The notes below the pieces were generated by a model. The model saw only the letters and a program-made list of their open reading frames with translations. It made no database searches and had not been told where the DNA came from. A program made the position numbers and the translations under genes. From positions 160,001 to 224,000 of the forward strand of contig JBMFRC010000002.1 in assembly GCA_049968235.1 (NCBI GenBank): a stretch of 64,000 nt of DNA. Direction: 5' to 3'. The stretch is from Candidatus Hydrogenedens sp. (lineage in GTDB: Bacteria; Hydrogenedentota; Hydrogenedentia; Hydrogenedentales; Hydrogenedentaceae). Position 1 is the stretch's first letter, and each line of letters begins with the position of its first letter. Below, one piece after another: positions 7,746 to 42,207 of this stretch.

Positions 7746-9938
7746 CTATTTGGATGAAATAGGACAGGGTATTCGTTTATATTTCTCCGGGAGTTTGACC
7801 CATTCTTCATCACCAAATAAGCCTATCTTAGAGGCATCAATGGGTTGAAATCCTATACGAAAAGCGGGCGAATCTTCTTTCAATCGGAAATTGCACTTAT
7901 CCGGATTTTCAAACAGAGGGTCTGCAATAATGCTATTAACATCAAATCCATCTTCCTGCCATTGTTTGAATGTTTTATTCTTAAACATTACATCTTTCCC
8001 TGACGCATTCCAGTAACAGTTCTTGTCCATCTGCCATTTCTTATTTGTCCAGTTGCTACCCAATAATTGGTCATTATTGTAATAAACAATATTTCTCTCA
8101 AATATAAACGATATGTGGTCTTCTTCTCGACTACGGATAATCTGTTCCCTTGCAGATAATGCGAAGATATTATTTATCACACGATTTTCACGACCATAAT
8201 GTTGATGGAAATTCCCTGTTAATGTGTGATGAACGATATTGTTTTCTAAAACGATGTAAGAACTTCCTTCATCCGTATATAATCCCCATCCTCCGTATTG
8301 TTCCGGGTCACACATAATATCGTGAATATGATTGTTCTTTAATTCTGTGCCAGGTGAAACTCCCAGTGTATAAATACCCCCCATATCCGCCAATTGAGCC
8401 TTTCCTATATTATGGATATGATTATATTCCACAATATTGTGATGTGCGGAACTGGGGTTATATCCCCAACACCATCCCACAGACACTCCAGAGTAACGAA
8501 AATCGCAAATTTCATTATGCGCTACGCGATTATACGAACTGCGACCTATCCATATACCGATACCCGCACGCAAAAATCGCCCACCTTCATGTATAAAACA
8601 ATTCTCCACCGTATTATATCCACACCCTGTTGCTCCTAATTCTTTATACATATATAGATTTTTCTCTTCTACAGTGGAAGGACCCGGGGTACTGTCCGTC
8701 TCTGCATTTGCAGTCTCTCCAATTTTAATTCCTCCTGCTCCCATATCATACAGATGACATTGTCGAATAGTATTATTTTGTGAGCCTGAACGCCACCATA
8801 GGGCATAATTACTCACATGTTGAATTGTACACTTCTCAAAAAAGCAATATTGTGCTCCTGTTCCCTGAATAGCACCGGGGACAGAAACCTCTGCTTGTGG
8901 GTCTGCTTGTCCCCGTTCCCCTATCCGAAAATCAGTAAAAGCAAACTCAATCCCTTTAAAAACAATATGTTCCACAAATTTATTTTCAGTGGGTATTCCC
9001 TCAAACAAAAGCAATTGTTCTACCACTGGGACAATAACTTCCGCAGAAGTCATATCCTCTTCGGGTAAAGGAATGTAATAAAGTTTTCCTTTTTCCCGGT
9101 CAAGATACCATTCCCCCGGTTTATCCAGTCCCTCTAAAAGATGTTCGATATAGAACCGCTGTCCTTCCGAAAAAATAACACCAAACCAAAAATTCTTCGG
9201 CACATTTAGATACACACACTTTTCATTTGTATCCACAGAACGAATAGGCAGTAGTGGAACTGCCCATTTGCAAAAAAGGACACAATAACTGCCTTTTAAT
9301 GTTTCCCAATTTTGAATGGGGTCTTTTTCATCATAAAAAACTTTTAGTGTTCCGGGCTGTTCTTCACTCTCAGGAACATATTCATATTTTTTTGCAGTGA
9401 AAAATTCTTGTTTAGAAGGATAATCTCCAAATGGATTTGTACAATCAGGGATACGAGCAGGTTGTCTACGTTCTCCATTAACCCATAAGGAATTAAATAC
9501 TAATTCCCCAATATTTTGCAATTGAATATCTGCTACATACCTATTGTCTTCCTTCTTCCATGATGTAATTTTCACTCCGCCTGAGATTAGAGGTTTTTCA
9601 TTATTGTAATTTTCAAATATTGTTGGGGCGTCTTTCTTACCTGAATGTTCAGGTTTTATAACGATAGGTGTACTTATAAAATAAGTTCCTCCTCTCAAAA
9701 CAACTCTTACTGTTTTTTCTACAGCACCTGAACTACGAATATCCTTAACTTTCTCCAGTGCCTTTTGAATAGTGGCTAAAGGACCATCTGTTTTATTTTC
9801 ATTTGCTTGTGGAAGCGTCCCAGACCATGTATCATTCCCTTCCGGTGAAACATATACAAATACTTCATTACTATTTTGTGCAAAACTCGCAAGAGAAATT
9901 AACAAAATCACACAGGAAAACATCAATAAATTTTTCAT
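7746..9938 (-). CDS. Secreted right-handed parallel beta-helix repeat protein (pectate-lyase-fold, probable polysaccharide-active enzyme)
   Basis: Signal peptide, N-terminal GNDxxxG(T) motif and repeated NNxIHx / NNIVHH beta-helix rungs. An AAGGAG Shine-Dalgarno precedes the ATG. Confidence 0.7.
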   Translation of the reverse strand: MKNLLMFSCVILLISLASFAQNSNEVFVYVSPEGNDTWSGTLPQANENKTDGPLATIQKALEKVKDIRSSGAVEKTVRVVLRGGTYFISTPIVIKPEHSGKKDAPTIFENYNNEKPLISGGVKITSWKKEDNRYVADIQLQNIGELVFNSLWVNGERRQPARIPDCTNPFGDYPSKQEFFTAKKYEYVPESEEQPGTLKVFYDEKDPIQNWETLKGSYCVLFCKWAVPLLPIRSVDTNEKCVYLNVPKNFWFGVIFSEGQRFYIEHLLEGLDKPGEWYLDREKGKLYYIPLPEEDMTSAEVIVPVVEQLLLFEGIPTENKFVEHIVFKGIEFAFTDFRIGERGQADPQAEVSVPGAIQGTGAQYCFFEKCTIQHVSNYALWWRSGSQNNTIRQCHLYDMGAGGIKIGETANAETDSTPGPSTVEEKNLYMYKELGATGCGYNTVENCFIHEGGRFLRAGIGIWIGRSSYNRVAHNEICDFRYSGVSVGWCWGYNPSSAHHNIVEYNHIHNIGKAQLADMGGIYTLGVSPGTELKNNHIHDIMCDPEQYGGWGLYTDEGSSYIVLENNIVHHTLTGNFHQHYGRENRVINNIFALSAREQIIRSREEDHISFIFERNIVYYNNDQLLGSNWTNKKWQMDKNCYWNASGKDVMFKNKTFKQWQEDGFDVNSIIADPLFENPDKCNFRLKEDSPAFRIGFQPIDASKIGLFGDEEWVKLPEKYKRIPCPISSK

Positions 9939-13830: not shown

Positions 13831-15021
13831 ATGTGGAATATTATATTTACACTGATATTGTCTTGTTCCACTCTCATTATAAGTCAGGTCAGTTTTTCTC
13901 AAGAAAATCCTTGTCTCAAAGAGGTTAATGACCTACCCCCTTTTAACGGAATTCCCAATCTATTCCAGTTTTGTGATGGAACCCCTGTGAAAACAATTCA
14001 GGATTGGGGAAAACGCAGAAAGGAATTGATGGATATTCTCGTGTTTTATGAATATGGACACTTACCCCCACCGGCAAAGATAAAAAAATCGGAGTTGATT
14101 GTTGAAGAAAAATTTTATAATGACAAAGGAATATATAGAGAATATAATGTTTATTATGGTCCACCCGATTTTAAGTTGGATGTTATGATGTTTTTGCCTA
14201 TTTCTGCACGTGAGAAACCCTGTCCTGTTATTCTATTCATACCTAAGTTCTGGAAAGAAAATGATGATAATAAAGAGATTGCTATCAAATGTATAGACCG
14301 TGGCTATGCTCTTTGTCTTTATGATAAAAGTGTGCTGGATGATGATAGTGGAAATAGAGACCAGATGATATACAAACTCTATCCTGCTTGTGATTGGGGT
14401 TCGTTAGGTGTTTGGGGGTGGGGTGCATTACGCGTCCTCGATTTTCTTGAAACGATTCCTGAAGTAAACACGAAACAACTAACATTAACAGGGCATTCGC
14501 GTAGAGGTAAAGCATCCCTGTGGGCGAGTGCTAATGATGAACGAATACCGTTAGTAATACCTCAATCCAGCGGAACAGGTGGTTGCGGTTCCTATCGAAT
14601 TGTAGGAAAGGGCTCAGAAACATTAAAAATTATTACAACAGAGGTTGCTCCTTATTGGTTTGTACCCCGATTAAAGGATTTTATTGGTAAAGAAGACCGT
14701 TTGCCTTTCGACCAGCATTTTTTGAAAGCGTTGATTGCTCCACGCGGACAGTTATCCCGCGAATCTTTAGGTGATTTATGGGCAAACCCCATGGGAACGC
14801 AGGTGATGCACGAATGTACCATTCCGGTATATAAATTCTTAGGTGTGCCTGAAAATATCGGCATACACTTTAGAGAAGGTGAACACGCACTACAACCTTC
14901 AGATTGGGATGTTGTTCTTGATTTTTCGGATTATTTCTTCTTTAAAAAGTCTCCACCCGCAGGACTTAATGTTTTACCCTTTAAAGACACTCCGAAACCA
15001 TCATGGGCTATTTCTAATTAA
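13831..15021 (+). CDS. Carbohydrate esterase family 15 (4-O-methyl-glucuronoyl methylesterase)-like, secreted
   Basis: Signal peptide and a G-x-S-R-x-G nucleophile motif (LTGHSRRGKASLWA), as in bacterial CE15 enzymes. Size is about 400 aa. Confidence 0.65.
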   Translation: MWNIIFTLILSCSTLIISQVSFSQENPCLKEVNDLPPFNGIPNLFQFCDGTPVKTIQDWGKRRKELMDILVFYEYGHLPPPAKIKKSELIVEEKFYNDKGIYREYNVYYGPPDFKLDVMMFLPISAREKPCPVILFIPKFWKENDDNKEIAIKCIDRGYALCLYDKSVLDDDSGNRDQMIYKLYPACDWGSLGVWGWGALRVLDFLETIPEVNTKQLTLTGHSRRGKASLWASANDERIPLVIPQSSGTGGCGSYRIVGKGSETLKIITTEVAPYWFVPRLKDFIGKEDRLPFDQHFLKALIAPRGQLSRESLGDLWANPMGTQVMHECTIPVYKFLGVPENIGIHFREGEHALQPSDWDVVLDFSDYFFFKKSPPAGLNVLPFKDTPKPSWAISN

Positions 15022-20618: not shown

Positions 20619-21884
20619 CTAAATATATTGTTCAATGTTCCAGGGTTCACGGTAGGTTCTTTTTATCCACTTTGTTGCTTCGGGGTCATCCTTAATGGTC
20701 AAATTTTGTGGGTCAAATACCACAGGACGCGAAAGCATAGTACTGATATTACAAAGATGACATAAGACCGCAGAAATGTGTCCTTCTTCTGCAGGGGCAT
20801 TGGCTTTTTCTTCACCGAGAATGGCTTTGGCAAAATTGATAGCATGGGGTATTTCAATATCGCTACCGGGATAAGTTTTAGGTTCTTTTGGCTTGCCATT
20901 CGGGAATACCTTCCAATCATCCCGTGTAACAACCATAGTACCTTTTTCACCATGAAACTCCGCAAAAGAATCCATCCCATATTCTGACCATAAACGAAGT
21001 TCCCAGACTACGGTCAATTCTGGATATTCAAGAATAGCCGTTTGTGTATCTGGCCATTCTTTAATATCTTTGGTAACAAATTGTCCACCCGTGGCAAAAA
21101 CACGAGAAGGATAGGCAATATTCAAAAACCAACGAACAATATCCAACCAATGAGCTGCCCAGTTCCCTGTATCTCCTGTTCCATAGTCCAGCATAAAGTG
21201 CCAGTTATAGTGAACACGGTATTTATTATAGGGCTTCATGGGAGCAGGTCCTGTCCACATGTCATAATCTAAATGCTTGGGTGGGTCGCTATCAGGAACC
21301 TTCGGAAGAGGTTCCCTCCAGTGGATTGTTCCTGCACGGGCAAACGCAATTTTGCCTAACTCGCCAGATTGTAGAAAAGAACGGGCTTCTTGGAAATGTT
21401 TTCCACTCCGTTGTTGTGAACCGACAACAACTACTAACTTTGGATTTTTCTTCATCGCCTGGAGCACTGCATAACCATCATAAATATTGTAAGAGAACGG
21501 TTTTTCTACATACACATGTTTTCCAGCAGAGACCGCCATTGCCGATATTAAAGAGTGCCAATGGTCAGGTGTAGCAACAACTACAGCATCTATATCTTTA
21601 TCATCAAGGACACGGCGAAAGTCTTTTTCCAAAACGGACACATTAATATTTTTTGAGGCAAGTTTTTTTTGTGCCTCGTTTAGTTCTTTTTCATCACAAT
21701 CACACAAAGTTTTAATTTCAAAATAGCCGGATTTCATAAGGTTTTCTGCTACTTGTGAACCTCTTCTTCGACAACCAATAATGCCTACCCGCATCTTTGG
21801 AGATTGTGCCTTCGCTTTTTTAGTTAAAGTGGCAGATGCCATCGCTACTGCTGATGTCGCCATAAATTGCCTGCGATTTAACAT
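20619..21884 (-). CDS. Gfo/Idh/MocA family oxidoreductase with twin-arginine (TAT) signal
   Basis: MLNRRQFMATSAVAMASA TAT signal and a Rossmann motif (VGIIGCRRRG). ATG at 21884 with an AGGAG Shine-Dalgarno at 9 nt; the track start at 21905 is TTG. Confidence 0.85.
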   Translation of the reverse strand: MLNRRQFMATSAVAMASATLTKKAKAQSPKMRVGIIGCRRRGSQVAENLMKSGYFEIKTLCDCDEKELNEAQKKLASKNINVSVLEKDFRRVLDDKDIDAVVVATPDHWHSLISAMAVSAGKHVYVEKPFSYNIYDGYAVLQAMKKNPKLVVVVGSQQRSGKHFQEARSFLQSGELGKIAFARAGTIHWREPLPKVPDSDPPKHLDYDMWTGPAPMKPYNKYRVHYNWHFMLDYGTGDTGNWAAHWLDIVRWFLNIAYPSRVFATGGQFVTKDIKEWPDTQTAILEYPELTVVWELRLWSEYGMDSFAEFHGEKGTMVVTRDDWKVFPNGKPKEPKTYPGSDIEIPHAINFAKAILGEEKANAPAEEGHISAVLCHLCNISTMLSRPVVFDPQNLTIKDDPEATKWIKRTYREPWNIEQYI

Positions 21885-22021
21885 ATTAAATTTCTCCTTC
21901 TTCAAATGACACTTAAACCATCTAAATAAAGAAGGGCTTAGTTATATTTTTGTAAAAAATATTTATTATTTTTAAGTTCCTTTTTAGTTACATTATACTA
22001 AATATTTCTAAAAAGTTTTTA

Positions 22022-22876
22022 TTAAGACAATATTGATTTTAATTCTTGAGCAACTTTTTTTGTTTGTTCTAAATTTGGCATACCCTGGTCGCCAACAATA
22101 ACCTCTGCGGTTAAATAATAATTATAACCAACATATTTCAATGCTTGTAGCAATCCTTCCCAATTCATATCTCCTACAAACAAACTGGTCGTAAAATTGT
22201 CTAATGTTCCACCACCATTATTTCGTTTGAAATTTTTTATATGGACACGGGCTATTCGTTGTCCTAAAATTTCAGCCCAATGTTCAGGATAACCATTGAT
22301 TAAGCAATTGCCTGCATCAAAATAGGCTTTGACCCATGAAGATTGGAACATATCTACAAATTGGGCAAACTCAAAGGGACCCGTAAGAAATTTACTCCAA
22401 ACATTTTCAAGAGCAATAATGACCCGATTTCTTTCTGCAATAGGTATTAATTGATAAATAGACTCCTGTGCCCATTTCCAGACTTCTTTCGCCGGAACAA
22501 TAGGACGATTTGAGTCAAAACATACATCAACAGTTCCCGGCAAAACAAGAACTGCCCCAGCACCTAACTGACTAGCCGTTTCAATATATGTTTTTGTAAA
22601 ATCAACAGATTGTTTACGTTCCTCTACATTGGGACTTCCAAGGGAAGACCCCCAATAATAACCCGTAGCTAACGAAGGTATTTCTAATCCCTCTGACTCC
22701 ACCAATCTCCGAATACATTTTATTTCCTCCTCTGTAGCAGTAGGTGACAATTCACCTGCTCCATAACATAATTCAATGCCATCCCAGCCCATCTCTTTAA
22801 CCTGTTTTATCACACTTTCAATCTTTACTTCACCTGCAAACCCACACACCATCCATCCATTCAACGCCATTTTCAT
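22022..22876 (-). CDS. Sugar phosphate isomerase/epimerase (xylose-isomerase-like TIM barrel)
   Basis: About 280 aa with AP-endonuclease-2/xylose-isomerase-like composition. It is a typical neighbour of Gfo/Idh/MocA genes. ATG with an AAGGA Shine-Dalgarno. Confidence 0.75.
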   Translation of the reverse strand: MKMALNGWMVCGFAGEVKIESVIKQVKEMGWDGIELCYGAGELSPTATEEEIKCIRRLVESEGLEIPSLATGYYWGSSLGSPNVEERKQSVDFTKTYIETASQLGAGAVLVLPGTVDVCFDSNRPIVPAKEVWKWAQESIYQLIPIAERNRVIIALENVWSKFLTGPFEFAQFVDMFQSSWVKAYFDAGNCLINGYPEHWAEILGQRIARVHIKNFKRNNGGGTLDNFTTSLFVGDMNWEGLLQALKYVGYNYYLTAEVIVGDQGMPNLEQTKKVAQELKSILS

Positions 22877-23776
22877 AAATACTATCCTTTATTTTTTATT
22901 TTTCCCATATGTTATTCACAACAGTTCGACATACTATATAGTAAGTATTTAAAAACAAAAAATAGAATAAAACAGATATTGTTAGGAAAGCAAGAAGGAA
23001 ATTACATATTCCCCAAAAAATGTTAGATGAATGCTAAAACTACAGAACAAACATGAACGAAATAAAGAAATATAAAAATTACAACGCAATTATCTCGATT
23101 GTAATAAATCCAATATAGTTTATAGATTAAACACTTTTTATCTGTGTTTTTTTACACACAGAAAGTAAGTGCAGTCATACTCCCAAAAATGATTTTTATC
23201 CCCAAAAATATATGCAATAACCGTAGTCTAATTATACATAATGATATGATATAAAAATTCCCATCGTTAGGCTAAGAAACCTATATTTTATAGGGACAAA
23301 ATATTTTTCGCACCAATGTAATACCAACACTCTTTTTTGTAAATGAATATACAGTGCATAATGAACACAGAAATGCATGTGCTATTTCAAAGATAAAAAA
23401 AAGAGTTAAATAGATTAAGTCAGTATATAAGTATTATGTTTGCAAAACTTGTATATTTCTAAATTTTTATTAAAAGTAAAAAAGATAAACAAAAATGTCT
23501 TTTTTTTATGGTAACAGAGAAAATCTTGTTTTTTAGCCAACATTATTGTGACAGTTATATTTTTGTATATTAAAGATCCAACCATTATTTTTATTACTAA
23601 AAAATATATGCTTTGATTTCTATATAAAAATTGAAATCAAATATAACCATATTATTGATTTTATAATTTTTTGATTTCGGTTTTTCCTTATGTTATAATA
23701 ATACACAAAACCGCACGGAGGTTAATTTAATTCTCAAAATTTTTTAACAGCTTTTTAAGCAAAGGAGTATGATTGT
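22877..23776. other. About 900-bp AT-rich non-coding leader upstream of the tandem DUF1559 genes
   Basis: No ORF of 60 aa or more on either strand. It has very low GC and contains poly-A/T tracts. Confidence 0.4.
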
Positions 23777-24768
23777 ATGCGTAAAAAAGTTTCACATTAA
23801 TTGAATTACTAGTCGTTATAGCCATTATTGGTATTCTTGCTGCGATACTACTTCCCGCTCTGGCACGGGCTCGTGAAGCAGCAAGACGTTCCAGTTGCCA
23901 GAATAACCTAAAACAATGGGGTTTGGTATTCAAAATGTACTCTAATGAAGCCAAAGGCGAACGCTATCCCCCGTTACAAACTTACAACCCGATAGAAAAT
24001 GATGCTGATATCGCTGCGGGTCCACAAGTAAGCACTCTATATCCCGAATACCTTACAGACCCCTATATTATCATTTGTCCTTCTGACCCCAGCGCATCAA
24101 ATATGAGAACTAAACTTGAAGAAAATGATGGAAACCTGGTTAAACTTTCAAAAGATATTGACGAAAGTTATGCTTACTTTGGTTGGGTTTTTGATAGACT
24201 AAAGCCTTCCACACCTGCCAATCAATTTCTAATTGTGACTATATTAACTTCATTATTAGGTGGTTCATTTGATACCAGCCAGCCCGTTCCCATCCAATTA
24301 GGAGCAGCATTAGATGGATTATATCACGCAAATATACCATTGGTAACTGCCTATGTGAACGGTTCTGACCCAACTGCTTTAATGAAAGTGATGGACCAGG
24401 ATTCTCACTTACCATCCAGCTGGGCAGGTTATGGGAATGGTGGTGGAAATACCGTATACCGTTTGCGTGAAGGTATTGAACGCTTCCTCATTACCGATAT
24501 TAATAACCCAGCAGCAAGTAACAATGCACAAAGTTCTGTATGGATTATGATGGATACATTCTCCGCAGGTGGAGTTGCCGGTGATTTGTTTAATCATATT
24601 CCGGGTGGTTGTAATGTACTTTATATGGATGGACATGTTGAATTTATAAGATATATAGCCACAAATAATCTTGTTGCCGACCCATCTGGCACAAGTGTTA
24701 ATGGAACTGAGCCTATTATCGCAACAGTGGCAAATATGGTATCTGCAATTGCGGCTGGCTCACAATAA
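23777..24768 (+). pseudogene. DUF1559 / prepilin-type (type II secretion pseudopilin-like) protein, N-terminal frameshift
   Basis: ATG at 23777 with an AGGAG Shine-Dalgarno; MRKKVSH then hits a stop. The +2 frame continues as [43 protein letters not shown], matching the downstream paralog. This is consistent with a 1-nt deletion near 23790. Confidence 0.6.
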
Positions 24769-24790
24769 CTGAAATAATTGTTTTTTACAT

Positions 24791-24834
24791 AAAAAATTCG
24801 TGCAGTTTAAATAAAACTGCACGAATTTTATTTT
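24791..24834 (+). terminator. Rho-independent terminator between the two DUF1559 genes
   Basis: Perfect 14-bp inverted repeat (AATTCGTGCAGTTT / AAACTGCACGAATT), 5-nt loop, followed by TTATTTT. An A-tract precedes it, giving a bidirectional look. Confidence 0.65.
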
Positions 24835-24908
24835 AAATATTGAAAAAAATAATATATAATATAAATATAGTCAATATTTAATTAACAACAATTACAAGGA
24901 TTTTTCTT

Positions 24909-25892
24909 ATGAAAAAAAAGGGTTTTACACTCATCGAATTGCTGGTGGTCATCGCAATCATCGGCATTCTTGCGGCAATTTTATTGCCAGCACTTGCTCG
25001 TGCTCGTGAAGCGGCCCGTCGTTCCAGTTGTGCTAATAATCTTAAACAATGGGGACTGGTCTTTAAAATGTATGCAAATGAAAGTAAAGGGGAACGTTTT
25101 CCCCCAATGCAAACTTATAACCCGATAACACAATCAAGGGCTTTTGCTGTAGGACCACAAGTGGACCTTATTTATCCTGAATATCTAACAGACCCATATA
25201 TAATGATATGTCCTTCGGATGCAGGTGCAAGTGAACATAGGAAAAGATTAGAGGAACACAATGGAAATTTACTTGAGATATCAGAAGATATTGATGCAAG
25301 TTATGCTTATTTTGGATGGCTGTTTGACCACTTAAAACCCATCGCTTCATTAACTTATTTTAACATAACTTTGTTACTATTAGCTGGGGGAGCAAACTTT
25401 GACCCATTAGTCCCAGCACCTATTCAATTTTTCGGAGCTTTAGATGCTTTAGTTGGAGAGTTCCCTAATGATGTTGCAAGATATATTAATAATTCTGACC
25501 CTACTGCACTAATGAAAGTTATGGACCATGACTCGGATTTAAGAAAAGCATCTCCCATTTGTATCGGTTATGGTAATGGAGGAGGAAATATTGTATATCG
25601 TTTAAGAGAAGGGATTGAAAGATTTTTACTCACTGATGTCAATAATCCGGCTTCGAGTAACAGTGCCCAGAGCAGTGTATGGATTATGCTGGATACATTA
25701 GCCACTCCTAACGCTAGAGAACCTCTTTTTAACCATATACCCGGAGGTTGTAATGTTCTTTATATGGACGGACATGTAGAATTCATAAGATATACATCCG
25801 ACCCTGACCTTTATGACCAGGATGTTCCTGGAACAGAACCTGTTGTTTCTGTTGTAGCAAATCTTGTAACAGCCCTAGCTGGCTCTCTCTAA
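24909..25892 (+). CDS. DUF1559 / prepilin-type N-terminal cleavage-methylation domain protein (PVC-group pseudopilin-like)
   Basis: [27 protein letters not shown] class III signal, and the conserved C-terminal [17 protein letters not shown]. Confidence 0.85.
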
Positions 25893-25960: not shown

Positions 25961-26443
25961 TTACTTTTCTTTTTCTTTCCAAAATTTATATGGATTTATA
26001 GATAGATAAGTATTTAGATATCGTGCATCGTTGCTTACTTCTTCACCTACCCATGGGGGGATAATTATTTTTTCTTCTTCCTTTTTCAACTCTATTTCTG
26101 CAATAATTAGTCCACTATTTGCTCCTGTAAATTCGTCTATCTCCCAACGTTGTCCTTCATACATTACAATATAACGAACTTTTTCGATAATATATCCCGT
26201 AACAAAGTTTCTTATTAATTCCTCTGCATCTGCATACGGTATTGTATATTCAAATTCATCCCTTGTTGTTGCTACAATGGCTCTTTTCAGATTTAGAGTA
26301 CACTTATCAGGTTCAATACGAACACGAACAGCCAAAGGCGGACTTGTATAGATATATGCCTGCTTTATAGGGATAGATTTAATAATAGAAGCACGCCAAT
26401 CATCTGATATGACTAAAAACTTATGTTCTATTTCTTTTGACAT
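25961..26443 (-). CDS. CYTH domain protein (class IV adenylyl cyclase / triphosphatase fold)
   Basis: N-terminal ExExK motif (EIEHKFLV). The ATG at 26443 is preferred over the TTG track start. Confidence 0.6.
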   Translation of the reverse strand: MSKEIEHKFLVISDDWRASIIKSIPIKQAYIYTSPPLAVRVRIEPDKCTLNLKRAIVATTRDEFEYTIPYADAEELIRNFVTGYIIEKVRYIVMYEGQRWEIDEFTGANSGLIIAEIELKKEEEKIIIPPWVGEEVSNDARYLNTYLSINPYKFWKEKEK

Positions 26444-26470
26444 CTTAAAATTGTGCAATCATAGGAATCT

Positions 26471-28330
26471 TTATTTATCTAACGATTTAATTTCTTTAGA
26501 TATAATTTCGTCCCATTTCGATTTTAACTGATTTCCAATATCGGGCTGGGTGTGAATAAAAATAATTGTTTCGGATTTCAATTCTGGTAAAACAAACGAG
26601 GTTTCCTTGCCCCAGTTTGCTTTCAATTCCGTAATTCCTTGAGGTCGAATTTCAAATAATGACTGCCCCTGAAACGGGATATTTATGCTTATTTTCAGGT
26701 TTTTCTTTTCCTTAAAAGGATAGGCTTCGGGATGTATCTCATAATCTAAATTTGTAACACACAATATTATAAAATCGCGTCCCTGTAAAGGAGCAATATC
26801 TACGTTTTCTGGAGCGGAACCTTTAAATGGTATTGGTTCAGAACATAGAAAATAATCCCGTAATAGGCACATAACTCTTCCCCACCCTTGCATGGCTCGT
26901 TCCAATTCAGGATATTTTTCGGCAATACTTTTATCGTGATTAAACCAGAGAATCCCTTTGGCGCCTCTGCCTAAATTTAATACTAGCTGAGCACCTAATT
27001 CTTCCGGTGTAGGCACGGGGCGTTTTGGTCGTTCACCCCAATCCGCAATTGCCTGACTCCATACCCAGATAGGTTTTGGCTCTGATGCTATTTTAAGGTC
27101 ATGCGTATAATACGCTGTTTCTTCTAATCGTGTCCCATACGGTTTGGGCCATTTACTGCTGGATGGGGCTGTTACAGAATAATGGTCCTGACATGGAATA
27201 TCGCATATTGAAGCATACTCAAAAAACTTAATATTTCTGCAAAGAGTAACGAACGTTGGCTTGGTATTATCATATTGGCATAAGTGCTGGTTTATAAGGA
27301 ACACAATATTTGCGGGGATAGACCAATCCGGTTCATCCATCAACATCCAGCATCCCACTTGTGGATGCCCTGTAAATTCTCGGACAATATCTACATTCAA
27401 AGGAACACCTGTAATAACCATTGCTCGAAACCCGTATTTGGGAGCTATCTCAGTAAAGAAAGGTTTGTCCTTTTTATCACCTTCTACCATAGTATCCACA
27501 TGCAGATTATATAAAGTCTCGTATGTTTCTGGATTATTTGTCCAGACTCCAATAGGGAAAAAATCGTCAAAAGCACGACGATGAGCAAAATACAATTCAT
27601 TCGTTTTCCCCTTATCCTTTGAAACTTCTACTCCTGCAATAAACCATGTTCCAGAACTTAGTGGTTTAGAGAGTCGAACCCTTGCAATTGCCATTCCTTC
27701 CGGTAACAACTCTTTAACATTCCAATTCACAACAATTTCATTCTGCGGGAAAAACAAAGTATTGTCTATCCGATATGTATCTTTTGAAAAATTACGAAGG
27801 AATATATCTATTTCCTTCATTTCCTGTAACACGTGGATATATGTAATTCGCACTGGTTCCGCTACCAGAATCCCTTCCATAGTGGCACATAATCGAGAAT
27901 TTTCATCCACTAATTGCAGAGCAAATTTTGTCCCCGGAGCAAAATCTTCGGATATTGCATTTATTTCCAGTACACCCAATTCCCCGGGCTGGACTGTTTG
28001 ATTAATATAGCGGTCCCATGCAACAAAATGATTTAATATCCAATAAGAGCGGTCTTTCCGATTCCAACGCCAATAACGGATGTGCGCGGGTTCTTTAGAA
28101 ATATTACGATAATATATATGAACCAATCCACCTTTGTTAACTATATCACTTTCAATTTCTTTTACTTTTTCCTTTTCCCATTCTGCAGGACGATAAATTA
28201 TCTTTTCAATTGTGAGACGCATAGAGAATTTACCTTCTAATTTGGCACCTATTTGGGCACTCTGGGCAAAAGTAAAAGACTCTATACAGGTGAAAATGAC
28301 CAACAAACAGAAAACCGTCCTAATATACAT
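26471..28330 (-). CDS. Secreted hypothetical protein (619 aa), possibly carbohydrate-active
   Basis: Signal peptide and an AAAAGGGG Shine-Dalgarno. No confidently recognisable motif. Confidence 0.55.
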   Translation of the reverse strand: MYIRTVFCLLVIFTCIESFTFAQSAQIGAKLEGKFSMRLTIEKIIYRPAEWEKEKVKEIESDIVNKGGLVHIYYRNISKEPAHIRYWRWNRKDRSYWILNHFVAWDRYINQTVQPGELGVLEINAISEDFAPGTKFALQLVDENSRLCATMEGILVAEPVRITYIHVLQEMKEIDIFLRNFSKDTYRIDNTLFFPQNEIVVNWNVKELLPEGMAIARVRLSKPLSSGTWFIAGVEVSKDKGKTNELYFAHRRAFDDFFPIGVWTNNPETYETLYNLHVDTMVEGDKKDKPFFTEIAPKYGFRAMVITGVPLNVDIVREFTGHPQVGCWMLMDEPDWSIPANIVFLINQHLCQYDNTKPTFVTLCRNIKFFEYASICDIPCQDHYSVTAPSSSKWPKPYGTRLEETAYYTHDLKIASEPKPIWVWSQAIADWGERPKRPVPTPEELGAQLVLNLGRGAKGILWFNHDKSIAEKYPELERAMQGWGRVMCLLRDYFLCSEPIPFKGSAPENVDIAPLQGRDFIILCVTNLDYEIHPEAYPFKEKKNLKISINIPFQGQSLFEIRPQGITELKANWGKETSFVLPELKSETIIFIHTQPDIGNQLKSKWDEIISKEIKSLDK

Positions 28331-32159: not shown

Positions 32160-33617
32160 ATGAAAAAATATTGGGTAATCTTATTGGTTTTTTATGTAAT
32201 TATCCAGATTACTACTCAAGCACAGATGATGACAAAAGTGGAAACTGTTCCGACAATAGAATTTGCGACCTCTATCCTCAATTTTGGTGCCATTGGGGAT
32301 GGAAAAACCTTAAATACGCAATTCATTCAAAACGCCATTAATACGGTATCGGGACAAGGAGGAGGAGTCGTACTTATCCCCGCAGGAAGATTTCTAACAG
32401 GAACAATTGTATTGAAGAACGGCGTGTTTCTCTATCTCAGTCCCGGAAGTGTACTAATAAGTAGCACAAATATTGAAGATTTTCCCGAAATGATACCCGA
32501 ATACCGTTCTTATACCGACAATTATTCGCAACGTTCACTCATCTTCGCAGAAAAACAAAAAAATATTGGTATTGTCGGTTATGGGAAAATCTATGGACAG
32601 GGAGAACAATTTAAAGAAGATGAAAATAGAATATACAAATTTCGACCTTACCTCGTTCGATTTGTTGAATGCAAAGATGTGAATTTAGAAGGAATAACAT
32701 TTGAAAATGGTGCTATGTGGACTATTCATTTGCTCGCGAATGAAAATGTTCACTGTTCGAATATAAAAATTAACAGTCGTTGCAACCGTAATAATGATGG
32801 TATTGATATTGATTCCTGCGAAAATGTCATTGTTAGCGATTGCCATATTGTTTCTGGCGATGATTCCATTGTTCTCAAAAGCACATCACCCAAACCATGT
32901 AAAAATATAACCATTACAAATTGTATTTTAAGTTCCTTATGCAATGCCTTAAAAATGGGAACAGAATCGAATGGCGGTTTCCAGAATATTTCAATTAGTA
33001 ATTGCACTATTTATGATACCCGTATATCCGGTGTAACAATTCAAACCGTAGATGGAGGAACAACTGAGAACATCGTTGTCAATAACATTTCCATGAAAAA
33101 TGTATCCAATCCTATTTTCATTCGTTTAGGGAACCGTGTACGACCTTGTTGTCCCGAAAAACCTGTTACATCTGTGGGAACAATGAAAAAAATAATCCTT
33201 ACAAATATAATTGCGACAGGTGCTGATTCTATCGGTTGTCCTATTTCAGGACTACCAAATCATTATATTGAGGAAATCACCTTCCGTGATATAAATCTCT
33301 CATTCCAAGGAGAAGTAGAAAATCAAATAGATATTCCAGAGGAAAAAGAGGATGCATATCCGGAGTACAGGATGTTCGGAACATTACCCGCTTATGGCTT
33401 TTTTATAAGGCATGTCAAGAATATCATTATGGAAAATATTACCATCCATAAAGATGATAAAGATATTCGCCCATCTCTTTTTTTAACAGATGTACAGACA
33501 CCTATTATATCCAATATCTATATATTTGATAATAATAAAAAAGAAAAACATATCTTCTCAGAAAACACATCCAACATTACCTTGAAGGATATATACCTGA
33601 ATGGTAAAGTAAAATAA
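32160..33617 (+). CDS. Glycoside hydrolase family 28 (polygalacturonase-like), secreted
   Basis: Signal peptide, N-terminal GAIGDGKT, and beta-helix repeats carrying GH28 catalytic-region-like NDGIDIDSCENV and GDDSIVLKS. Confidence 0.8.
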   Translation: MKKYWVILLVFYVIIQITTQAQMMTKVETVPTIEFATSILNFGAIGDGKTLNTQFIQNAINTVSGQGGGVVLIPAGRFLTGTIVLKNGVFLYLSPGSVLISSTNIEDFPEMIPEYRSYTDNYSQRSLIFAEKQKNIGIVGYGKIYGQGEQFKEDENRIYKFRPYLVRFVECKDVNLEGITFENGAMWTIHLLANENVHCSNIKINSRCNRNNDGIDIDSCENVIVSDCHIVSGDDSIVLKSTSPKPCKNITITNCILSSLCNALKMGTESNGGFQNISISNCTIYDTRISGVTIQTVDGGTTENIVVNNISMKNVSNPIFIRLGNRVRPCCPEKPVTSVGTMKKIILTNIIATGADSIGCPISGLPNHYIEEITFRDINLSFQGEVENQIDIPEEKEDAYPEYRMFGTLPAYGFFIRHVKNIIMENITIHKDDKDIRPSLFLTDVQTPIISNIYIFDNNKKEKHIFSENTSNITLKDIYLNGKVK

Positions 33618-39997: not shown

Positions 39998-41086
39998 TTA
40001 TGTTGGTGTTCGTTTCCAAATGGAGATGGATAGTATCAAAAATAATAGATTTGCCCCCCATGCACCTATTATCGGTGGTAAAGTCTGGAGATAACCCAAA
40101 CCGGTAAATAGAATAAAACAAAGCATGTAGCACAATGCAGAGATGGCTGTTATTCCGAAACTCAATATAAATCCCCCTTTTTTCCACAATACCGATAAAG
40201 GTAACGCAAGTAATAACATAATAAAAATGCTGGCAGGTCGTGCTATCCGTGCATACCAATCCACTTCATATTTATAAGTAGGTATTCCAAAAAAACGGGC
40301 TCGTTTGATTTCCTCATAAAACTGCTTCCATGTTTTTAGTTCGTGAGGCAGGTCGAGGGCAAATAACGTTTCGGGAGATTCCGTAAATGGAGCAGGTATT
40401 TGTGTAATTCGAATCACCTCTTGTTCCATATCTTTTTTGGGGAAAAGAACAAACTGGCGACCATCTTCTATAAACCATCTTTTTTGTGTCTTATCCCACC
40501 AGATATATCGTGCACGTATTTCGTCAATACGGTCTTCCTGAATGCGATGAATCACTATATCTCTGCCTGTCATGGCTTCGCGATTAAATCGTAATATATG
40601 ACAGGTCCAATTCCCACTTAGATTGGTCCAACTAACACCAGAATGCGTATCTCCCAGGTGGTATGAGAAATACATCTTCTCCAGATGTCGAAACTGTTCT
40701 GCGCACCATACACCCATAGTATCTTCTACAAAAAAACTTCCTATCGCAATACATAATCCGGCAAGAAAAACACTCGTTGTTATTCTCAATAGAGGTATCC
40801 CTCCGGAAAGTAATGCGGATATTTCCCCTTCTTGAGTACTTTTACCCCAGACTAAAAAGGTCGTTAGCATCACACCTGCAGATAGAAAATGGTATTGTAG
40901 AAAAACTTTTGGCAGAGACAATATATAATATTGAACAATAATAATAAATGGAACATTATACTTCTGTACAGATTCCTGTCGGGCAGAAAAAAAATCAACG
41001 ATAACATATAGAAATGCAAGCGTAATTAATACCCTCAAAAAGGTCTTGAGCCACCATAAAAGGTAATATTTGTCTATCGTTTTCAT
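39998..41086 (-). CDS. LptF/LptG family permease (YjgP/YjgQ), second gene of the pair
   Basis: Start set at MKTIDKYYLLWWLKTFL, a typical LptG-type N-terminus, with an ATGA overlap onto the upstream gene's stop. Six TM helices and a periplasmic beta-jellyroll insert. The longer track ORF reaching 41317 is an out-of-frame overlap artefact. Confidence 0.7.
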   Translation of the reverse strand: MKTIDKYYLLWWLKTFLRVLITLAFLYVIVDFFSARQESVQKYNVPFIIIVQYYILSLPKVFLQYHFLSAGVMLTTFLVWGKSTQEGEISALLSGGIPLLRITTSVFLAGLCIAIGSFFVEDTMGVWCAEQFRHLEKMYFSYHLGDTHSGVSWTNLSGNWTCHILRFNREAMTGRDIVIHRIQEDRIDEIRARYIWWDKTQKRWFIEDGRQFVLFPKKDMEQEVIRITQIPAPFTESPETLFALDLPHELKTWKQFYEEIKRARFFGIPTYKYEVDWYARIARPASIFIMLLLALPLSVLWKKGGFILSFGITAISALCYMLCFILFTGLGYLQTLPPIIGAWGANLLFLILSISIWKRTPT

Positions 41087-42207
41087 AATCGGTCTGCCCT
41101 TATTAGAAAAAATAACCCCAACCCGCCGATGAGTATATTCGGTATTTGCTGTACGATACATTTTAGATATAAAGGCATAAGCCCACCTCCCCCCACAGCT
41201 TTGTAAAGAAGAAAATATAGTCCAACAATCAGAAAACCCGTAGAAAAAGCATATGTCGTGCCTGCTCCACGCATTCGCACACCTATCGGCGATGCGATTA
41301 ATCCTAATGCCAGACACATCAAAGGGAAGGAAAGCCGTTCTGCAATTTCACTGCGAAATTTTTTAACATCCGACAGAAGTGGTAATCCTTTTGTTCGCTC
41401 ATATTCCTGCGAGATACGACGGTGCTCTTCCAATAATTCACGAATAGACATACCTGTCCGAAGTCGAATGGTTTCCATAGGCTGGAGTGGAGGAATAGGT
41501 TTTTCTAATCGCTGAAAACTTCCACGAACAACCTGATTATTTTGTTCTTGTGACTCTATCCAGAAACCATTTAACATTTCCAGCACATTTTCATCTTTCC
41601 CTTTTCGCCAGCGTGCTTTTTCTGCATAAAAGGCAACCATTTTCCCTTCATCACCGGGTTGTAATATAACAATGTCCTGCAATTCACCATCTCTTGACCG
41701 TCCTCGAATATATACCCGCAGTTTACCATATTCATACATTTTCCCGGTGGGAATTAAATCTAATGACATACGTAAAGGTAGGTCCATACGGGCTAATTTC
41801 ATAAATTGCCGAAATGCCCATGGTTGTGCAATATCTTGAACAACAAAGCAAAAAATACTCAAAACGAATGATAACATCACCGCAGGTAAGGCTATCCGAC
41901 GCATTGAAATACCCCCAGCAGTCATGGCGATTATCTCCCGATATCGACTCATGCGGTCAAACATTAACATTAAACCAAATAAGAAGGTAATCGGAATAAT
42001 CATCCCCACCATCATCGGAAGTGCATACAACGACATCCATAGAAAATCTGTTACCTGAAGCGGAGCCACAGGAAGTTCATCCAACAATTCTTTTACCTGC
42101 TGTTGGAGTATTCCGCTAATCATTAGAATCGCAACCGCAGAAAACGCAATAAACATTGGCGGGATAATCTGTCGAAGTATATATCGGTCTATCCGTGTTA
42201 TAATCAT
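41083..42207 (-). CDS. LptF/LptG family LPS export permease (YjgP/YjgQ), first gene of the pair
   Basis: MIITRIDRYILRQ N-terminus with the TM1-3 / periplasmic domain / TM4-6 layout. Confidence 0.75.
   Translation of the reverse strand: MIITRIDRYILRQIIPPMFIAFSAVAILMISGILQQQVKELLDELPVAPLQVTDFLWMSLYALPMMVGMIIPITFLFGLMLMFDRMSRYREIIAMTAGGISMRRIALPAVMLSFVLSIFCFVVQDIAQPWAFRQFMKLARMDLPLRMSLDLIPTGKMYEYGKLRVYIRGRSRDGELQDIVILQPGDEGKMVAFYAEKARWRKGKDENVLEMLNGFWIESQEQNNQVVRGSFQRLEKPIPPLQPMETIRLRTGMSIRELLEEHRRISQEYERTKGLPLLSDVKKFRSEIAERLSFPLMCLALGLIASPIGVRMRGAGTTYAFSTGFLIVGLYFLLYKAVGGGGLMPLYLKCIVQQIPNILIGGLGLFFLIRADRL

What the first reader, a model, noticed from the sequence alone, without database searches (positions are those of the whole stretch)
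22877..25892. Tandem DUF1559 pseudopilin paralogs behind a ~900-bp AT-rich leader, with the first copy frameshifted at codon 5
The two adjacent genes are roughly 65-70% identical and share the prepilin N-terminus and the [18 protein letters not shown]-terminus. The first copy has an intact Shine-Dalgarno and ATG (23777) but loses frame after MRKKVSH, consistent with a 1-nt deletion in a G/T run near 23790, and then resumes the conserved sequence in the +2 frame. Possible explanations are a sequencing error, a recent pseudogene, or slippage-dependent expression. The very long ORF-free AT-rich leader and the strong terminator between the copies suggest high and separately regulated expression, as reported for DUF1559 genes in Planctomycetes. 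The function of this family is still unknown.
Basis: seen in the sequence. Interest (0 to 1): 0.5.

Follow-up and report, generated by a model that had tools for sequence, protein, structure and literature searches.

The report
Frameshifted pseudopilin gene in recombining array
One of two neighbouring pilin-like genes in an uncultured Hydrogenedens bacterium is switched off by a one-base deletion just after its start codon; related genomes show the upstream genes of this small tandem family being silenced at the start, fused and patched by recombination again and again, but the gene itself is most simply a recent pseudogene.

Summary
Two same-strand paralogs (66% aa identity) carry a prepilin N-terminus, a DUF1559 N-terminal match and the H-X9-DG C-terminal motif. 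Copy 1 has a Shine-Dalgarno and ATG (23777) but reads MRKKVSH*. The conserved frame runs open from 23785 to 24768 in the -1 frame.

Intact orthologs read ATGCGTAAAAAAGGTTTCACA; the window lacks one G. A second MAG that differs by one SNP has the same deletion, so it is probably real.

New findings:
- Copy 1 is a recombinant. Its promoter, 5'UTR and first ~45-70 codons come from a third paralog ("X"); its body comes from "c1". Relatives carry X-c1-c2, so one repeat unit was deleted here.
- In sister lineages X or c1 were knocked out independently four more times, always at the start region: an 18-nt deletion of the ATG, a ~93-nt 5' truncation, a ~20-nt SD/ATG deletion, and a nonsense at codon 3. 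Every body stayed open.
- One lineage has a 105-nt patch from start-less X in intact c2.
- dN/dS is 0.03-0.12 throughout, so there is no diversifying selection.
- There is no in-phase slippery heptamer, no stimulatory structure and no conservation of the shift.
- Only the last ~140 nt of the "900-bp leader" are conserved. They hold a promoter about 80 nt upstream of the ATG.

Verdict: a recent null allele in an unstable pseudopilin array. A pilE/pilS-like cassette system remains possible but unproven.

The parts
22877..23670 (+). AT-rich (24% GC) ORF-free divergent spacer between the xylose-isomerase-like TIM-barrel gene (22022-22876, minus strand) and the copy-1 promoter. Not conserved in sequence in relatives.
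   Evidence: No Rfam hit in the spacer. No remnant of a family gene and no repeat elsewhere in the window. L011 has a spacer of similar length (about 850 nt) and AT-richness but unrelated sequence.
23671..23699 (+). Promoter-like site TTGATT-17 nt-TATAAT with an extended -10 TG. The -10 box is conserved before gene X in L011, L086/L001 and L173. It implies a 5'UTR of about 75 nt.
   Evidence: Scan; conservation. Function is inferred, not shown.
23707..23723 (+). 5'UTR element AAAACCGCACGGAGGTT (contains a GGAGG). In relatives its reverse complement sits just after the gene X stop codon; in the window that partner is missing.
23762..23767 (+). Shine-Dalgarno AAGGAG, 9 nt before the ATG.
   Evidence: conserved in L086, L173, L011 and L172.
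23777..23800 (+). Residual start ORF MRKKVSH*: the ATG frame, ended by TAA at 23798-23800.
23789..23790 (+). Site of the 1-nt deletion. AAAAAAG-TTTC here, AAAAAAGGTTTC in intact orthologs. It removes one G of the Gly(-1) codon.
   Evidence: The same deletion is in the second MAG, L006.
23791..24768 (+). Copy-1 body in the -1 frame: 325 codons plus stop, FTLIELLVV...AAGSQ*. No in-frame start before the TTG at 23923.
   Evidence: NCBI annotated it as MGC8737490.1, 322 aa, from a non-canonical start.
23905..23990 (+). Recombination junction zone. Upstream of it the window matches gene X of relatives (87-95% nt). Downstream it matches gene c1 (80-97%).
   Evidence: Sliding identity; informative sites.
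24793..24829 (+). Intrinsic-terminator-like hairpin with a 16-bp perfect stem, a 5-nt loop and a T-run. Homologous hairpins follow each array member in relatives.
24832..24860 (+). Promoter-like site for copy 2 (TTTAAA-17-TATAAT). Conserved before c2 in L001, L086, L175 and L176.
24909..25892 (+). Copy 2 ('c2'), an intact 327-aa prepilin-type DUF1559/HX9DG protein (SD AAGGA at 24896-24900). It is the conserved core gene next to CYTH in all lineages.

Best explanation
The locus is what remains of a three-gene tandem array (X - c1 - c2) of prepilin-type DUF1559/H-X9-DG pseudopilin-like genes in a Candidatus Hydrogenedens genome.

What the proteins are (inferred from the families):
- A short basic leader (MxKK) that ends in Gly, followed by FTLIE.
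- A roughly 50-residue N-terminal helix and a globular periplasmic or surface domain with a pilin-like core.
- They would therefore be cleaved and N-methylated by a prepilin peptidase, then membrane-anchored or assembled by a type II secretion / type IV pilus-like machine.

What happened in the window lineage:
1. An unequal homologous crossover through the conserved 5' coding region deleted one repeat unit. It joined the promoter, 5'UTR and first ~45-70 codons of X to the body of c1.
2. This fused gene then lost one G of the Gly(-1) codon (or X had already lost it). Translation from the intact SD/ATG stops after seven codons.
3. The result is a clean null allele, a very recent pseudogene. It is neither an assembly error nor a programmed frameshift.

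Copy 2 (c2) is untouched. It has its own promoter and is insulated by the terminator.

Across sister lineages, X and c1 are accessory members. They are repeatedly silenced by lesions in the translation-start region, recombined with each other and with c2, and eventually deleted. c2 next to CYTH is the stable core.

Which steps are shown and which are inferred:
- Shown: the lesion, the chimerism, the array variants and the purifying selection.
- Inferred: the order of the two events, the lack of expression, and the reason for the bias towards the 5' end. I think the most likely reason is selection for nulls that make no truncated, membrane-inserting prepilin.
For: Lesion and family:
-.
- Intact reference 5' ends: L173 ATGCGTAAAAAAGGTTTCACA and L086.
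- The same 1-nt deletion is in a second NCBI MAG (L006, GCA_049969095.1). It is 4221/4222 identical to the window; the one SNP, at 25795, is nonsynonymous in copy 2.
- About 37 other window ORFs show full-length domain matches and no split genes.

Chimerism and deletion of one unit:
- Window 23778-23900 is 87-95% identical to gene X of L086/L001 but only 65-75% to their c1.
- From about 23960 on it is 80-97% identical to c1 and 50-80% to X. Informative sites switch between about 23905 and 23990.
- L011 and L173 share the window's downstream synteny (CYTH plus a 619-aa gene) and carry X, c1 and c2 as separate genes. The two-gene state is therefore derived.

Recency:
- dN/dS of window c1 against orthologs is 0.06-0.08 at dS 0.64-0.83. 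The intact c2 gives the same values.
- 4.0% of single-base changes in the body would create a stop. An unconstrained ORF would be expected to break within about 0.075 substitutions per site.

Instability of the array:
- Number of members upstream of c2: none (L176), one (window), two (L011, L173, L086, L001), three or more (L175).
- A 105-nt patch 100% identical to X sits inside c2 of L003/L087.

Not programmed:
- In the ATG frame the codons are CGU AAA AAA GUU, so A_AAA_AAG is out of phase.
- The RNA fold of 23760-23880 has z = +1.04.
- No relative shares the shift.
- No intact allele of the fused gene exists among 5.8 billion proteins.

Pilin nature:
- HMMs.
- AF2 model with helix 8-58.
Against: - I examined no reads. 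The two MAGs may come from one project and one technology, so a systematic error at AAAAAAGG cannot be formally excluded.
- Five of seven single-lesion events in this clade hit the start region while the bodies stay open (P = 1.5e-5 to 1.2e-3). Simple neutral decay does not predict this. It could instead mean that the bodies are kept for a purpose.
- The order of fusion and frameshift is unknown.
- Expression, processing and assembly of any of these proteins have never been shown.
- The window contains no pilus or T2SS machinery and no prepilin peptidase.
Confidence: 0.6

Rival explanations
1. Silent-cassette variation system (pilE/pilS-like). X is an expression site with a strong promoter. 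5'-defective copies are kept as promoterless or start-less donors, and their bodies are moved into expressed genes by homologous recombination or gene conversion. The window's frameshifted fusion is then an OFF state of the expression site, one that can still donate sequence or be repaired from c2.
For: - Five independent lesions are confined to the start region, with roughly 310-codon bodies intact: window dG; L001-type X d18 and c1 d~93; L011 c1 d~20; L172 nonsense at codon 3. The binomial P is 1.5e-5 to 1.2e-3.
- Broken copies in the wider family mostly carry internal lesions.
- A 105-nt tract identical to the start-less X sits inside the intact c2 of L003/L087.
- The window gene itself joins the X 5' end to the c1 body.
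- The 5' coding ~85 nt of L011 c1 and c2 are almost identical.
Against: - dN/dS is 0.03-0.12 in all regions, including the variable middle. X, c1 and c2 are old, separately conserved types, so there is no sign of diversifying selection.
- The copy hit in three lineages is the putative expression site itself, which is not how pilE/pilS works.
- The lesions are fixed and identical across 8 assemblies of the L001-type lineage, so they are not switching fast.
- Polymorphism in truncated c1 (8 synonymous: 3 nonsynonymous) looked like constraint. But 10 of 11 minor alleles equal the intact L086 allele, so they were imported rather than filtered after truncation.
- All lesions are young enough that the open bodies need no selection to explain them.
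- Only one conversion tract was seen. The L002 'hybrid gene' shares that tract's 5' breakpoint and is probably an assembly loop.
- No recombination-initiating element was found; the spacer is AT-rich, so a G4 is unlikely.
Confidence: 0.2
2. Assembly or sequencing artefact. The genome really has GG, and copy 1 is an intact, expressed fusion gene encoding [12 protein letters not shown]...
For: The lesion is a single base next to an A6 run, the body is perfectly open, and no read data were available. The two MAGs that share it may derive from related samples or methods.
Against: - Two separately deposited MAGs (MGC8737490.1 on a 279-kb contig, MGC8845489.1 on a 7-kb contig) both have the deletion, and they differ by a SNP nearby.
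- The base lost is in a G2 run, not in the long homopolymer.
- No other split gene was seen in the window.
- Independent, unambiguous start-region lesions (deletions of 18, ~20 and ~93 nt, and a nonsense codon) in the same genes of sister lineages show that such nulls really occur. Several are reproduced in up to 8 assemblies.
Confidence: 0.1
3. Programmed recoding. A -1 ribosomal frameshift, or transcriptional slippage on the A6 run, restores the frame and gives [12 protein letters not shown]..., so copy 1 is expressed at a low, regulated level.
For: The required shift is -1 and occurs on AAA AAA, with tRNA-Lys in both the P and A sites. The SD lies 15 nt upstream. Adding one A to the mRNA would also restore the frame.
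Against: - In phase the heptamer is U_AAA_AAA, not X_XXY_YYZ.
- There is no downstream structure (z = +1.04).
- A6 is short for RNA polymerase slippage (general knowledge).
- Either route puts Ser, not the near-invariant Gly, at -1 of the prepilin cleavage site.
- The shift is not conserved in any relative.
Confidence: 0.03

Closest known systems
DUF1559 / H-X9-DG prepilin-type proteins (PF07596 + TIGR04294 + TIGR02532), large paralog families of Planctomycetota and relatives
   Same: - Both copies pass all three curated cut-offs.
- N-terminus [28 protein letters not shown], and a conserved C-terminal [18 protein letters not shown].
- Function is unknown in the literature: 74 paralogs in R. 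baltica (PMC2754498) and 68 in P. limnophila, two of them essential (PMC10632474).
   Different: - The host is Hydrogenedentota.
- The Pfam match covers only profile positions 2-46 of 268, so the central ~200 residues are a divergent subfamily.
- The motif spacing here is H-X10-DG (H276...D287).
- Pfam's name SBP_bac_10 and the 'solute binding protein' label in PMC2754498 are not borne out. The fold search finds pilins, not solute-binding proteins.
Type II secretion major pseudopilin GspG and type IV pilins
   Same: - Class III signal (Gly -1, Phe +1, Glu +5) and a long N-terminal helix.
- NCBI names copy 2 'type II secretion system protein'.
   Different: - The TIGR01710 GspG score is 35-36 bits against a cut-off of 88.85, so it is not an ortholog.
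- The globular part is about twice the size of a pilin head.
- Foldseek finds nothing in the PDB.
- There is no secretion or pilus operon nearby.
Neisseria pilE/pilS pilin antigenic variation
   Same: - Tandem, same-family pilin-like genes with a conserved 5' coding region and a variable body.
- Some copies lack the promoter, RBS and N-terminal codons (L001-type c1, L011 c1).
- One non-reciprocal patch has moved from a start-less copy into an intact one.
   Different: - There is no diversifying selection.
- The lesions are lineage-fixed and differ between lineages.
- The promoter-bearing copy is itself knocked out in three lineages.
- There are only 1-4 copies.
- No G4 or other initiator was found, and no within-population mosaic spectrum has been shown.
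dnaX-type -1 programmed ribosomal frameshifting / homopolymer contingency loci
   Same: The shift needed is -1 and lies on a run of Lys AAA codons next to an SD-like sequence.
   Different: The heptamer is out of phase, there is no stimulatory structure and no conservation. The tract is too short (A6, G2) for classical slipped-strand phase variation.

Membership tests
Prepilin-type N-terminal cleavage/methylation domain (TIGR02532 / PF07963) | HMM score above the curated cut-off | tested here: met
   Copy 2: 37.4 bits (cut-off 16.3) and 37.1 bits (21.2). Copy 1 in the shifted frame: 24.5 and 25.7 bits.
Prepilin-type N-terminal cleavage/methylation domain (TIGR02532 / PF07963) | A short basic leader ending in Gly(-1), aromatic +1, Glu +5 and about 20 hydrophobic residues, all translated from a start codon | tested here: not met
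   Copy 2 meets it (MKKKG|[21 protein letters not shown]). Copy 1 does not. The Gly codon is destroyed and the ATG is in another frame, so no such protein can be made without a frameshift.
DUF1559 (PF07596, SBP_bac_10) | HMM score above the gathering threshold | tested here: met
   42.6 and 49.0 bits against 23.3. Only profile positions 2-35 and 2-46 of 268 are aligned.
H-X9-DG C-terminal domain (TIGR04294) | HMM above cut-off, and the literal H-X9-DG spacing | tested here: inconclusive
   HMM is met (29.0 and 28.0 bits against 19; profile positions 6-22 of 22). The spacing from the invariant His to DG is 10 residues here (H276, D287, G288 in copy 2).
T2SS major pseudopilin GspG (TIGR01710 equivalog) | Equivalog score at or above 88.85 bits | tested here: not met
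Type IV pilin / pseudopilin fold | An N-terminal alpha1 helix packed on a beta-sheet | tested here: inconclusive
Programmed -1 ribosomal frameshift site (dnaX-like) | A slippery heptamer X_XXY_YYZ in phase with the upstream frame | tested here: not met
   The zero-frame codons are CGU AAA AAA GUU, so the in-phase heptamer is U_AAA_AAA. A_AAA_AAG is in another phase.
Programmed -1 ribosomal frameshift site (dnaX-like) | A downstream stimulatory structure, and conservation of the shift among relatives | tested here: not met
   Fold z = +1.04; 173 of 200 shuffles fold at least as well. Relatives have an in-frame GGT or unrelated lesions.
Slipped-strand phase-variable contingency gene | A long homopolymer or SSR tract at the lesion | tested here: not met
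   The lost base belongs to a G2 run next to an A6 run. The other lesions in the clade are deletions of 18, ~20 and ~93 nt and a substitution, none of them SSR changes.
Slipped-strand phase-variable contingency gene | ON and OFF alleles coexisting within a population | not testable with these tools
   No reads were available. Only OFF alleles of the fused gene exist in the protein collection.
pilE/pilS-type silent-cassette variation | Promoterless, 5'-truncated silent copies beside an intact expression locus | tested here: inconclusive
   The truncated c1 (L001-type) and start-less c1 (L011) fit. But the window copy keeps its promoter, SD and ATG, and the promoter-bearing X is itself knocked out in three lineages.
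pilE/pilS-type silent-cassette variation | Non-reciprocal transfer from a silent copy to an expressed copy | tested here: inconclusive
   One 105-nt X-to-c2 tract is present in L003/L087. There is no identical tract between the two window copies; the best segments are 75-86% identical.
pilE/pilS-type silent-cassette variation | Diversifying selection on, or hypervariability of, the exchanged region | tested here: not met
   dN/dS of the middle region is 0.06-0.12 for orthologous pairs. The one exception is the mosaic L086 X at 0.30.

The most novel reading that the evidence does not exclude
The Hydrogenedens X-c1-c2 array is a contingency locus for a surface or periplasmic pseudopilin set. Individual variants are switched off by start-proximal mutations that leave their coding bodies usable. 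They are re-activated or reshuffled by homologous recombination through the conserved first ~150 nt of the gene (fusion by unit deletion, as in the window; patch conversion, as in L003/L087). This would be a pilE/pilS-like logic operating in the hitherto function-less DUF1559 family of an uncultured phylum.
Probability: 0.2. Interest if true: 0.7.

Novelty: new member of a known kind. Interest (0 to 1): 0.4.

Why it matters
DUF1559/H-X9-DG proteins are among the largest paralog families of Planctomycetota-like bacteria, with tens of copies per genome, and no function is known for them.

This locus gives two things. First, there is structural support that they are pilin-like rather than solute-binding proteins. 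Second, it is a small, tractable array that can be followed across lineages: gene fusion by unequal crossover, gene conversion, and repeated 'clean' knock-outs at the start codon.

If the bias towards the 5' end reflects selection, against truncated prepilins or for reusable cassettes, it says something about how these proteins are handled by the cell and why the family turns over so fast.

For annotation, it shows that the deposited protein (322 aa from a non-canonical start) is a pseudogene product. It also shows that several database entries for the family have mis-set starts.

Tried and rejected
- Post-truncation constraint test. I counted polymorphisms in the 5'-truncated c1 across 8 assemblies. 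They are 8 synonymous to 3 nonsynonymous, which looked like purifying selection. But 10 of 11 minor alleles are the states of the intact L086 allele, so recombination or shared ancestry confounds the test. I dropped it.
- L002 'hybrid gene plus duplication'. It looked like the reciprocal product of unequal crossover. However, its 5' breakpoint is identical to that of the 105-nt X patch in c2 of L003, from the same project. It is best explained as an assembler loop through that repeat, so I did not count it.
- 305-307-aa database proteins lacking the N-terminus (P0009, P0065). The DNA has an intact ATG and GFTLIE. These are annotation start choices, not lesions.
- Metagenome scan for close relatives.
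- P0122 look-up, meant as an independent check of the deletion. It turned out to be a different species with c2 only.
- Rfam, repeats and a tblastn of family proteins against the spacer. None found anything in the 900-bp spacer.
- RNAduplex test of 5'UTR/3' pairing. Homologous terminator hairpins confound it, so I did not use it.
- Foldseek against the PDB. No significant hit.
- The overlapping ORFs at 39998-42207, suspected to be a frameshift. They are two full-length LptF/LptG paralogs.
Full report
**1. The observation**

The sequence is as described. AAGGAG (23762-23767) precedes an ATG at 23777. That frame reads MRKKVSH and stops at TAA 23798-23800. One base back, the frame is open from 23785 to the stop at 24766-24768. 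It encodes (K)[44 protein letters not shown]...[18 protein letters not shown]...AAGSQ. It has no ATG/GTG/TTG before the TTG at 23923.

Copy 2 (24909-25892) is an intact 327-aa paralog. The two are 66% identical (E 2e-125). Both pass the curated cut-offs of PF07963, PF07596, TIGR02532 and TIGR04294.

The stretch 22889-23784 is the longest and most AT-rich stretch of the 64-kb window without an ORF of 110 codons or more (24% GC against 37% overall). A perfect 16-bp hairpin with a T-run lies between the copies (24793-24829).

**2. What the proteins are**

The closest database proteins are all from Candidatus Hydrogenedens / Hydrogenedentota MAGs. NCBI annotated copy 1 as a 322-aa 'DUF1559 domain-containing protein' starting MELLVV..., i.e. 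from a non-canonical start inside the shifted frame. It annotated copy 2 as a 'type II secretion system protein'.

- The Pfam DUF1559 match covers only the first ~45 of 268 profile positions. The middle of the protein is therefore a divergent subfamily.
- GspG and other pilin equivalog models score far below their cut-offs.
- In an alignment of 65 homologs, FTLIELL..., C41, C101, the GNGG motif, REGIERF and NH-PGG-N-L--DGH are invariant, and Gly(-1) is nearly invariant.
- An AlphaFold2 model of copy 2 (pLDDT 84.5, pTM 0.80) has a helix spanning residues 8-58 followed by a mixed globular domain.
- Foldseek finds nothing significant in the PDB.

The proteins are therefore pilin-like, with an enlarged head. 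The fold search does not support the 'solute-binding protein' label attached to PF07596 (PMC2754498). The literature gives no function: 74 paralogs in R. baltica (PMC2754498) and 68 in P. limnophila, two of them essential (PMC10632474).

**3. Is the frameshift real?**

Intact orthologs of the same 5' end read GGAGTATGTTTTATGCGTAAAAAAGGTTTCACATTAATTGA (L173) and GGAGTATGGTTGTATGAGTAAAAAAGGTTTCACA (L086). The window reads GGAGTATGATTGTATGCGTAAAAAAG-TTTCACA, so one G of the Gly(-1) codon is missing.

A second deposited MAG (GCA_049969095.1, contig JBMFPN010000136.1, L006) has the identical deletion. It differs from the window at one of 4222 positions, a nonsynonymous SNP at 25795 in copy 2. The two proteins carry separate accessions.

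About 37 other ORFs of the window gave full-length domain matches with no split genes. These include RpoD, DnaG, UvrB, LptF and LptG. I therefore take the deletion as real. Without reads I leave about 10% for an artefact.

**4. Copy 1 is a fusion**

Relatives carry a three-gene array, which I call X - c1 - c2. Each gene is followed by a homologous hairpin terminator.

| Lineage | State of the array |
|---|---|
| L173/L174 | All three intact. Context: GroES-GroEL - FG-GAP - X - c1 - c2 - CYTH |
| L086 | All three intact. Context: NadA - W - X - c1 - c2 |
| L011 | Downstream synteny with the window (CYTH plus the 619-aa gene, 76% nt) |

A sliding comparison gives the following:
- Window 23660-23900 (promoter, 5'UTR, first ~45 codons) is 87-95% identical to gene X of L086/L001, but only 65-75% identical to their c1.
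- From about 23960 onward the window is 80-97% identical to c1 and 50-80% identical to X.
- Informative sites switch between about 23905 and 23990.

The window has no separate X. Because the three-gene state occurs in the outgroups that share the window's downstream synteny, the window state is derived. An unequal crossover or deletion through the conserved 5' coding region removed one ~1.1-kb unit and joined the X 5' end to the c1 body.

**5. Recurrent start-proximal silencing**

In the same clade I found four more independent lesions, all in the translation-start region, all with a fully open body.

| Lineage and gene | Lesion |
|---|---|
| L001-type, X (L001, L003, L004, L087, L168-L171; X and c1 lesions seen in all 8) | The SD is kept, but 18 nt including the ATG are deleted (GGAGTA\|AGGTTTCACA), with an in-frame TAA directly before GGT |
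| L001-type, c1 (same 8 assemblies) | About 93 nt are missing, so homology starts at codon ~17 ([11 protein letters not shown]) right after the upstream terminator |
| L011, c1 | About 20 nt carrying the SD, the ATG and three codons are missing (TTAACAG\|AAGGTTTTACT) |
| L172 (GCA_017880035.1), X-like gene | ATG CGT TAA AAG GGT TTT: a nonsense at codon 3 |

Internal single lesions in the clade are two: a frameshift in W of L086, and a duplication/insertion at codon ~62 in the fourth copy of L175.

That makes five of seven in the start region. The binomial P is 1.5e-5, 1.8e-4 or 1.2e-3 if that region is 6%, 10% or 15% of the mutational target.

A family-HMM census of stop-to-stop ORFs over 79 species-representative loci and 80 metagenome loci found more than 200 intact copies. 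They almost always have an ATG four codons before GFTLIE. The broken copies elsewhere mostly carry internal stops or frameshifts (L031, L066, L052, L099/L102, L147, L148, L089). c2 is intact everywhere. In L176 it is the only member present.

**6. Recombination**

Besides the window fusion, c2 of L003 and L087 contains a 105-nt tract 100% identical to the start-less X of the same array. The flanking sequence is identical to c2 of L001. The junctions share only 6 nt, so this is not an assembly artefact.

L002's apparent c2::X hybrid and duplication has the same 5' breakpoint. It is best explained as an assembler loop through that 105-nt repeat, so I do not count it.

Other signs of exchange:
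- dS between the L001 and L086 lineages is 0.037 for c2, 0.195 for c1 and 0.75 for X. The body of X in L086 is itself mosaic.
- The 5' ~85 nt of c1 and c2 in L011 are nearly identical.

**7. Selection and age**

Nei-Gojobori dN/dS of lesioned copies against orthologs is 0.06-0.09, the same as for intact c2 (0.08-0.15). Split into N-terminal, middle and C-terminal thirds, all regions give 0.02-0.12. The one exception is the mosaic L086 X.

X, c1 and c2 are therefore old, separately conserved types, with no sign of diversifying selection.

In window copy 1, 4.0% of possible single-base changes create a stop. A free-drifting ORF would be expected to break within about 0.075 substitutions per site (95% level, stops only). 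Its dS to the nearest relatives is 0.64-0.83, so the lesion is recent.

A test for constraint after truncation failed, because the minor alleles are imported from the intact lineage (8 synonymous: 3 nonsynonymous polymorphisms in truncated c1).

**8. The 'leader', promoters and terminator**

Only the last ~140 nt before the ATG are conserved in L011 and L086. They contain TTGATT-17-TGtTATAAT (23671-23699). The extended -10 box is conserved before X in L011, L086/L001 and L173. The inferred 5'UTR is about 75 nt, so most of the 900 bp is an untranscribed or regulatory spacer rather than a leader.

L011 also has an ~850-nt AT-rich spacer there, of unrelated sequence. L173 and L086 have about 330-360 nt.

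The spacer has no Rfam match, no family-gene remnant and no repeat.

Copy 2 has its own conserved promoter-like site (24832-24860) immediately after the terminator. That supports separate transcription of the two copies.

**9. Recoding tests**

- The required shift is -1.
- In phase the heptamer is U_AAA_AAA. A_AAA_AAG is out of phase.
- The 121-nt RNA around and downstream of the site folds worse than shuffles (z = +1.04).
- Either a ribosomal or a transcriptional slip would place Ser at the near-invariant Gly(-1).
- No relative shares the shift.

I consider programmed expression very unlikely.

**10. Interpretation**

Best explanation (0.6): a real, recent null allele of a recombinant X::c1 pseudopilin gene, in an unstable tandem array. 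The accessory upstream members are repeatedly silenced, recombined and lost, while c2 persists.

I attribute the bias towards the 5' end most plausibly to selection for nulls that make no truncated, membrane-inserting prepilin. A mutational hot spot at a strongly transcribed 5' end is an alternative. Both are inferences.

Main rival (0.2): the open bodies are retained as silent cassettes in a pilE/pilS-like system.
- For it: the 5' bias, the X-to-c2 patch and the window fusion.
- Against it: strong purifying selection everywhere, lineage-fixed irreversible lesions, knock-out of the promoter-bearing copy itself, and the young age of every lesion.

Artefact: 0.1. Recoding: 0.03.

**11. Novelty and score**

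As it stands this is a new member (a pseudogenised fusion) of a known family of unknown function, plus one intact member. The frameshift by itself is ordinary.

The comparative pattern is a modestly surprising, testable lead in a very large family without a known function. That pattern is five independent start-region knock-outs, a unit-deletion fusion and a conversion tract in a three-gene pseudopilin array of an uncultured phylum. Interest: 0.4.

Noticed in passing
window 23707-23723; L011 about 6066-6078 and 7146-7161; L173 and L086/L001, 5'UTR and 3' end of gene X: The first conserved element of the gene X 5'UTR (AAAACCGCACGGAGGTT, which contains GGAGG) has a reverse-complement partner just after the X stop codon and before the terminator. 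It pairs 13/13 bp in L011, 14/16 in L173 and 7+7 in L086/L001. The central bases differ between lineages. The window keeps only the 5' half, because the X 3' end was lost in the fusion. It could be mRNA 5'-3' pairing, a STAB-SD-like stabiliser, or an old inverted repeat.
   Followed up: partly
L172 1903-2780 (+) and 6077-6749 (-): Two heavily decayed family pseudogenes with several frameshifts and stops lie in the same Hydrogenedens-like genome that has the codon-3 nonsense in its X-like gene (L172 6965-7954). They show what old pseudogenes of this family look like.
   Followed up: partly
L175 3614-4652: The fourth array member carries a 40-nt direct duplication separated by a 36-nt insert at codon ~62, which breaks the frame. 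It may be a real lesion or an assembly artefact.
   Followed up: no
L002 843-3921: The contig shows truncated c1 twice, with a c2::X hybrid gene between the two copies. The hybrid's 5' breakpoint equals that of the 105-nt X patch in c2 of L003 (same ENA project). It is probably an assembler loop through that repeat.
   Followed up: yes
L086 4926-5918 (P0009); L015 (P0065): Database proteins of this family are often annotated from a downstream TTG (305-307 aa, no N_methyl domain) although the DNA has an intact SD, ATG and GFTLIE. The starts appear to have been propagated by homology to the truly truncated ortholog.
   Followed up: yes
L007, L008, L013, L022, L027, L039 and others: Several MAGs titled 'uncultured Nitrospirales' or 'Nitrospiraceae' carry Hydrogenedens-type DUF1559 arrays, 65-73% identical to the window protein. 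The taxonomic labels look wrong.
   Followed up: no
window 26471-28330 (-) and 25961-26458 (-): A 619-aa protein with no Pfam match, together with a CYTH-domain protein, sits immediately downstream of c2 in every lineage examined (window, L011, L009, L173, L175, L176). This linkage to c2 is conserved and unexplained.
   Followed up: no
window 7746-9938, 13831-15021, 20619-22876, 32160-33617: The neighbourhood is rich in carbohydrate-active and sugar-conversion genes: GH141-like beta-helix, glucuronyl esterase, Gfo/Idh/MocA oxidoreductase, xylose-isomerase-like TIM barrel and GH28. There is no pilus or T2SS machinery and no prepilin peptidase in the 64 kb.
   Followed up: partly
window 39998-42207 (-): Two ORFs overlapping by 235 nt looked like a frameshifted gene. 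They are full-length LptF and LptG paralogs; the overlap comes from an over-extended GTG start.
   Followed up: yes
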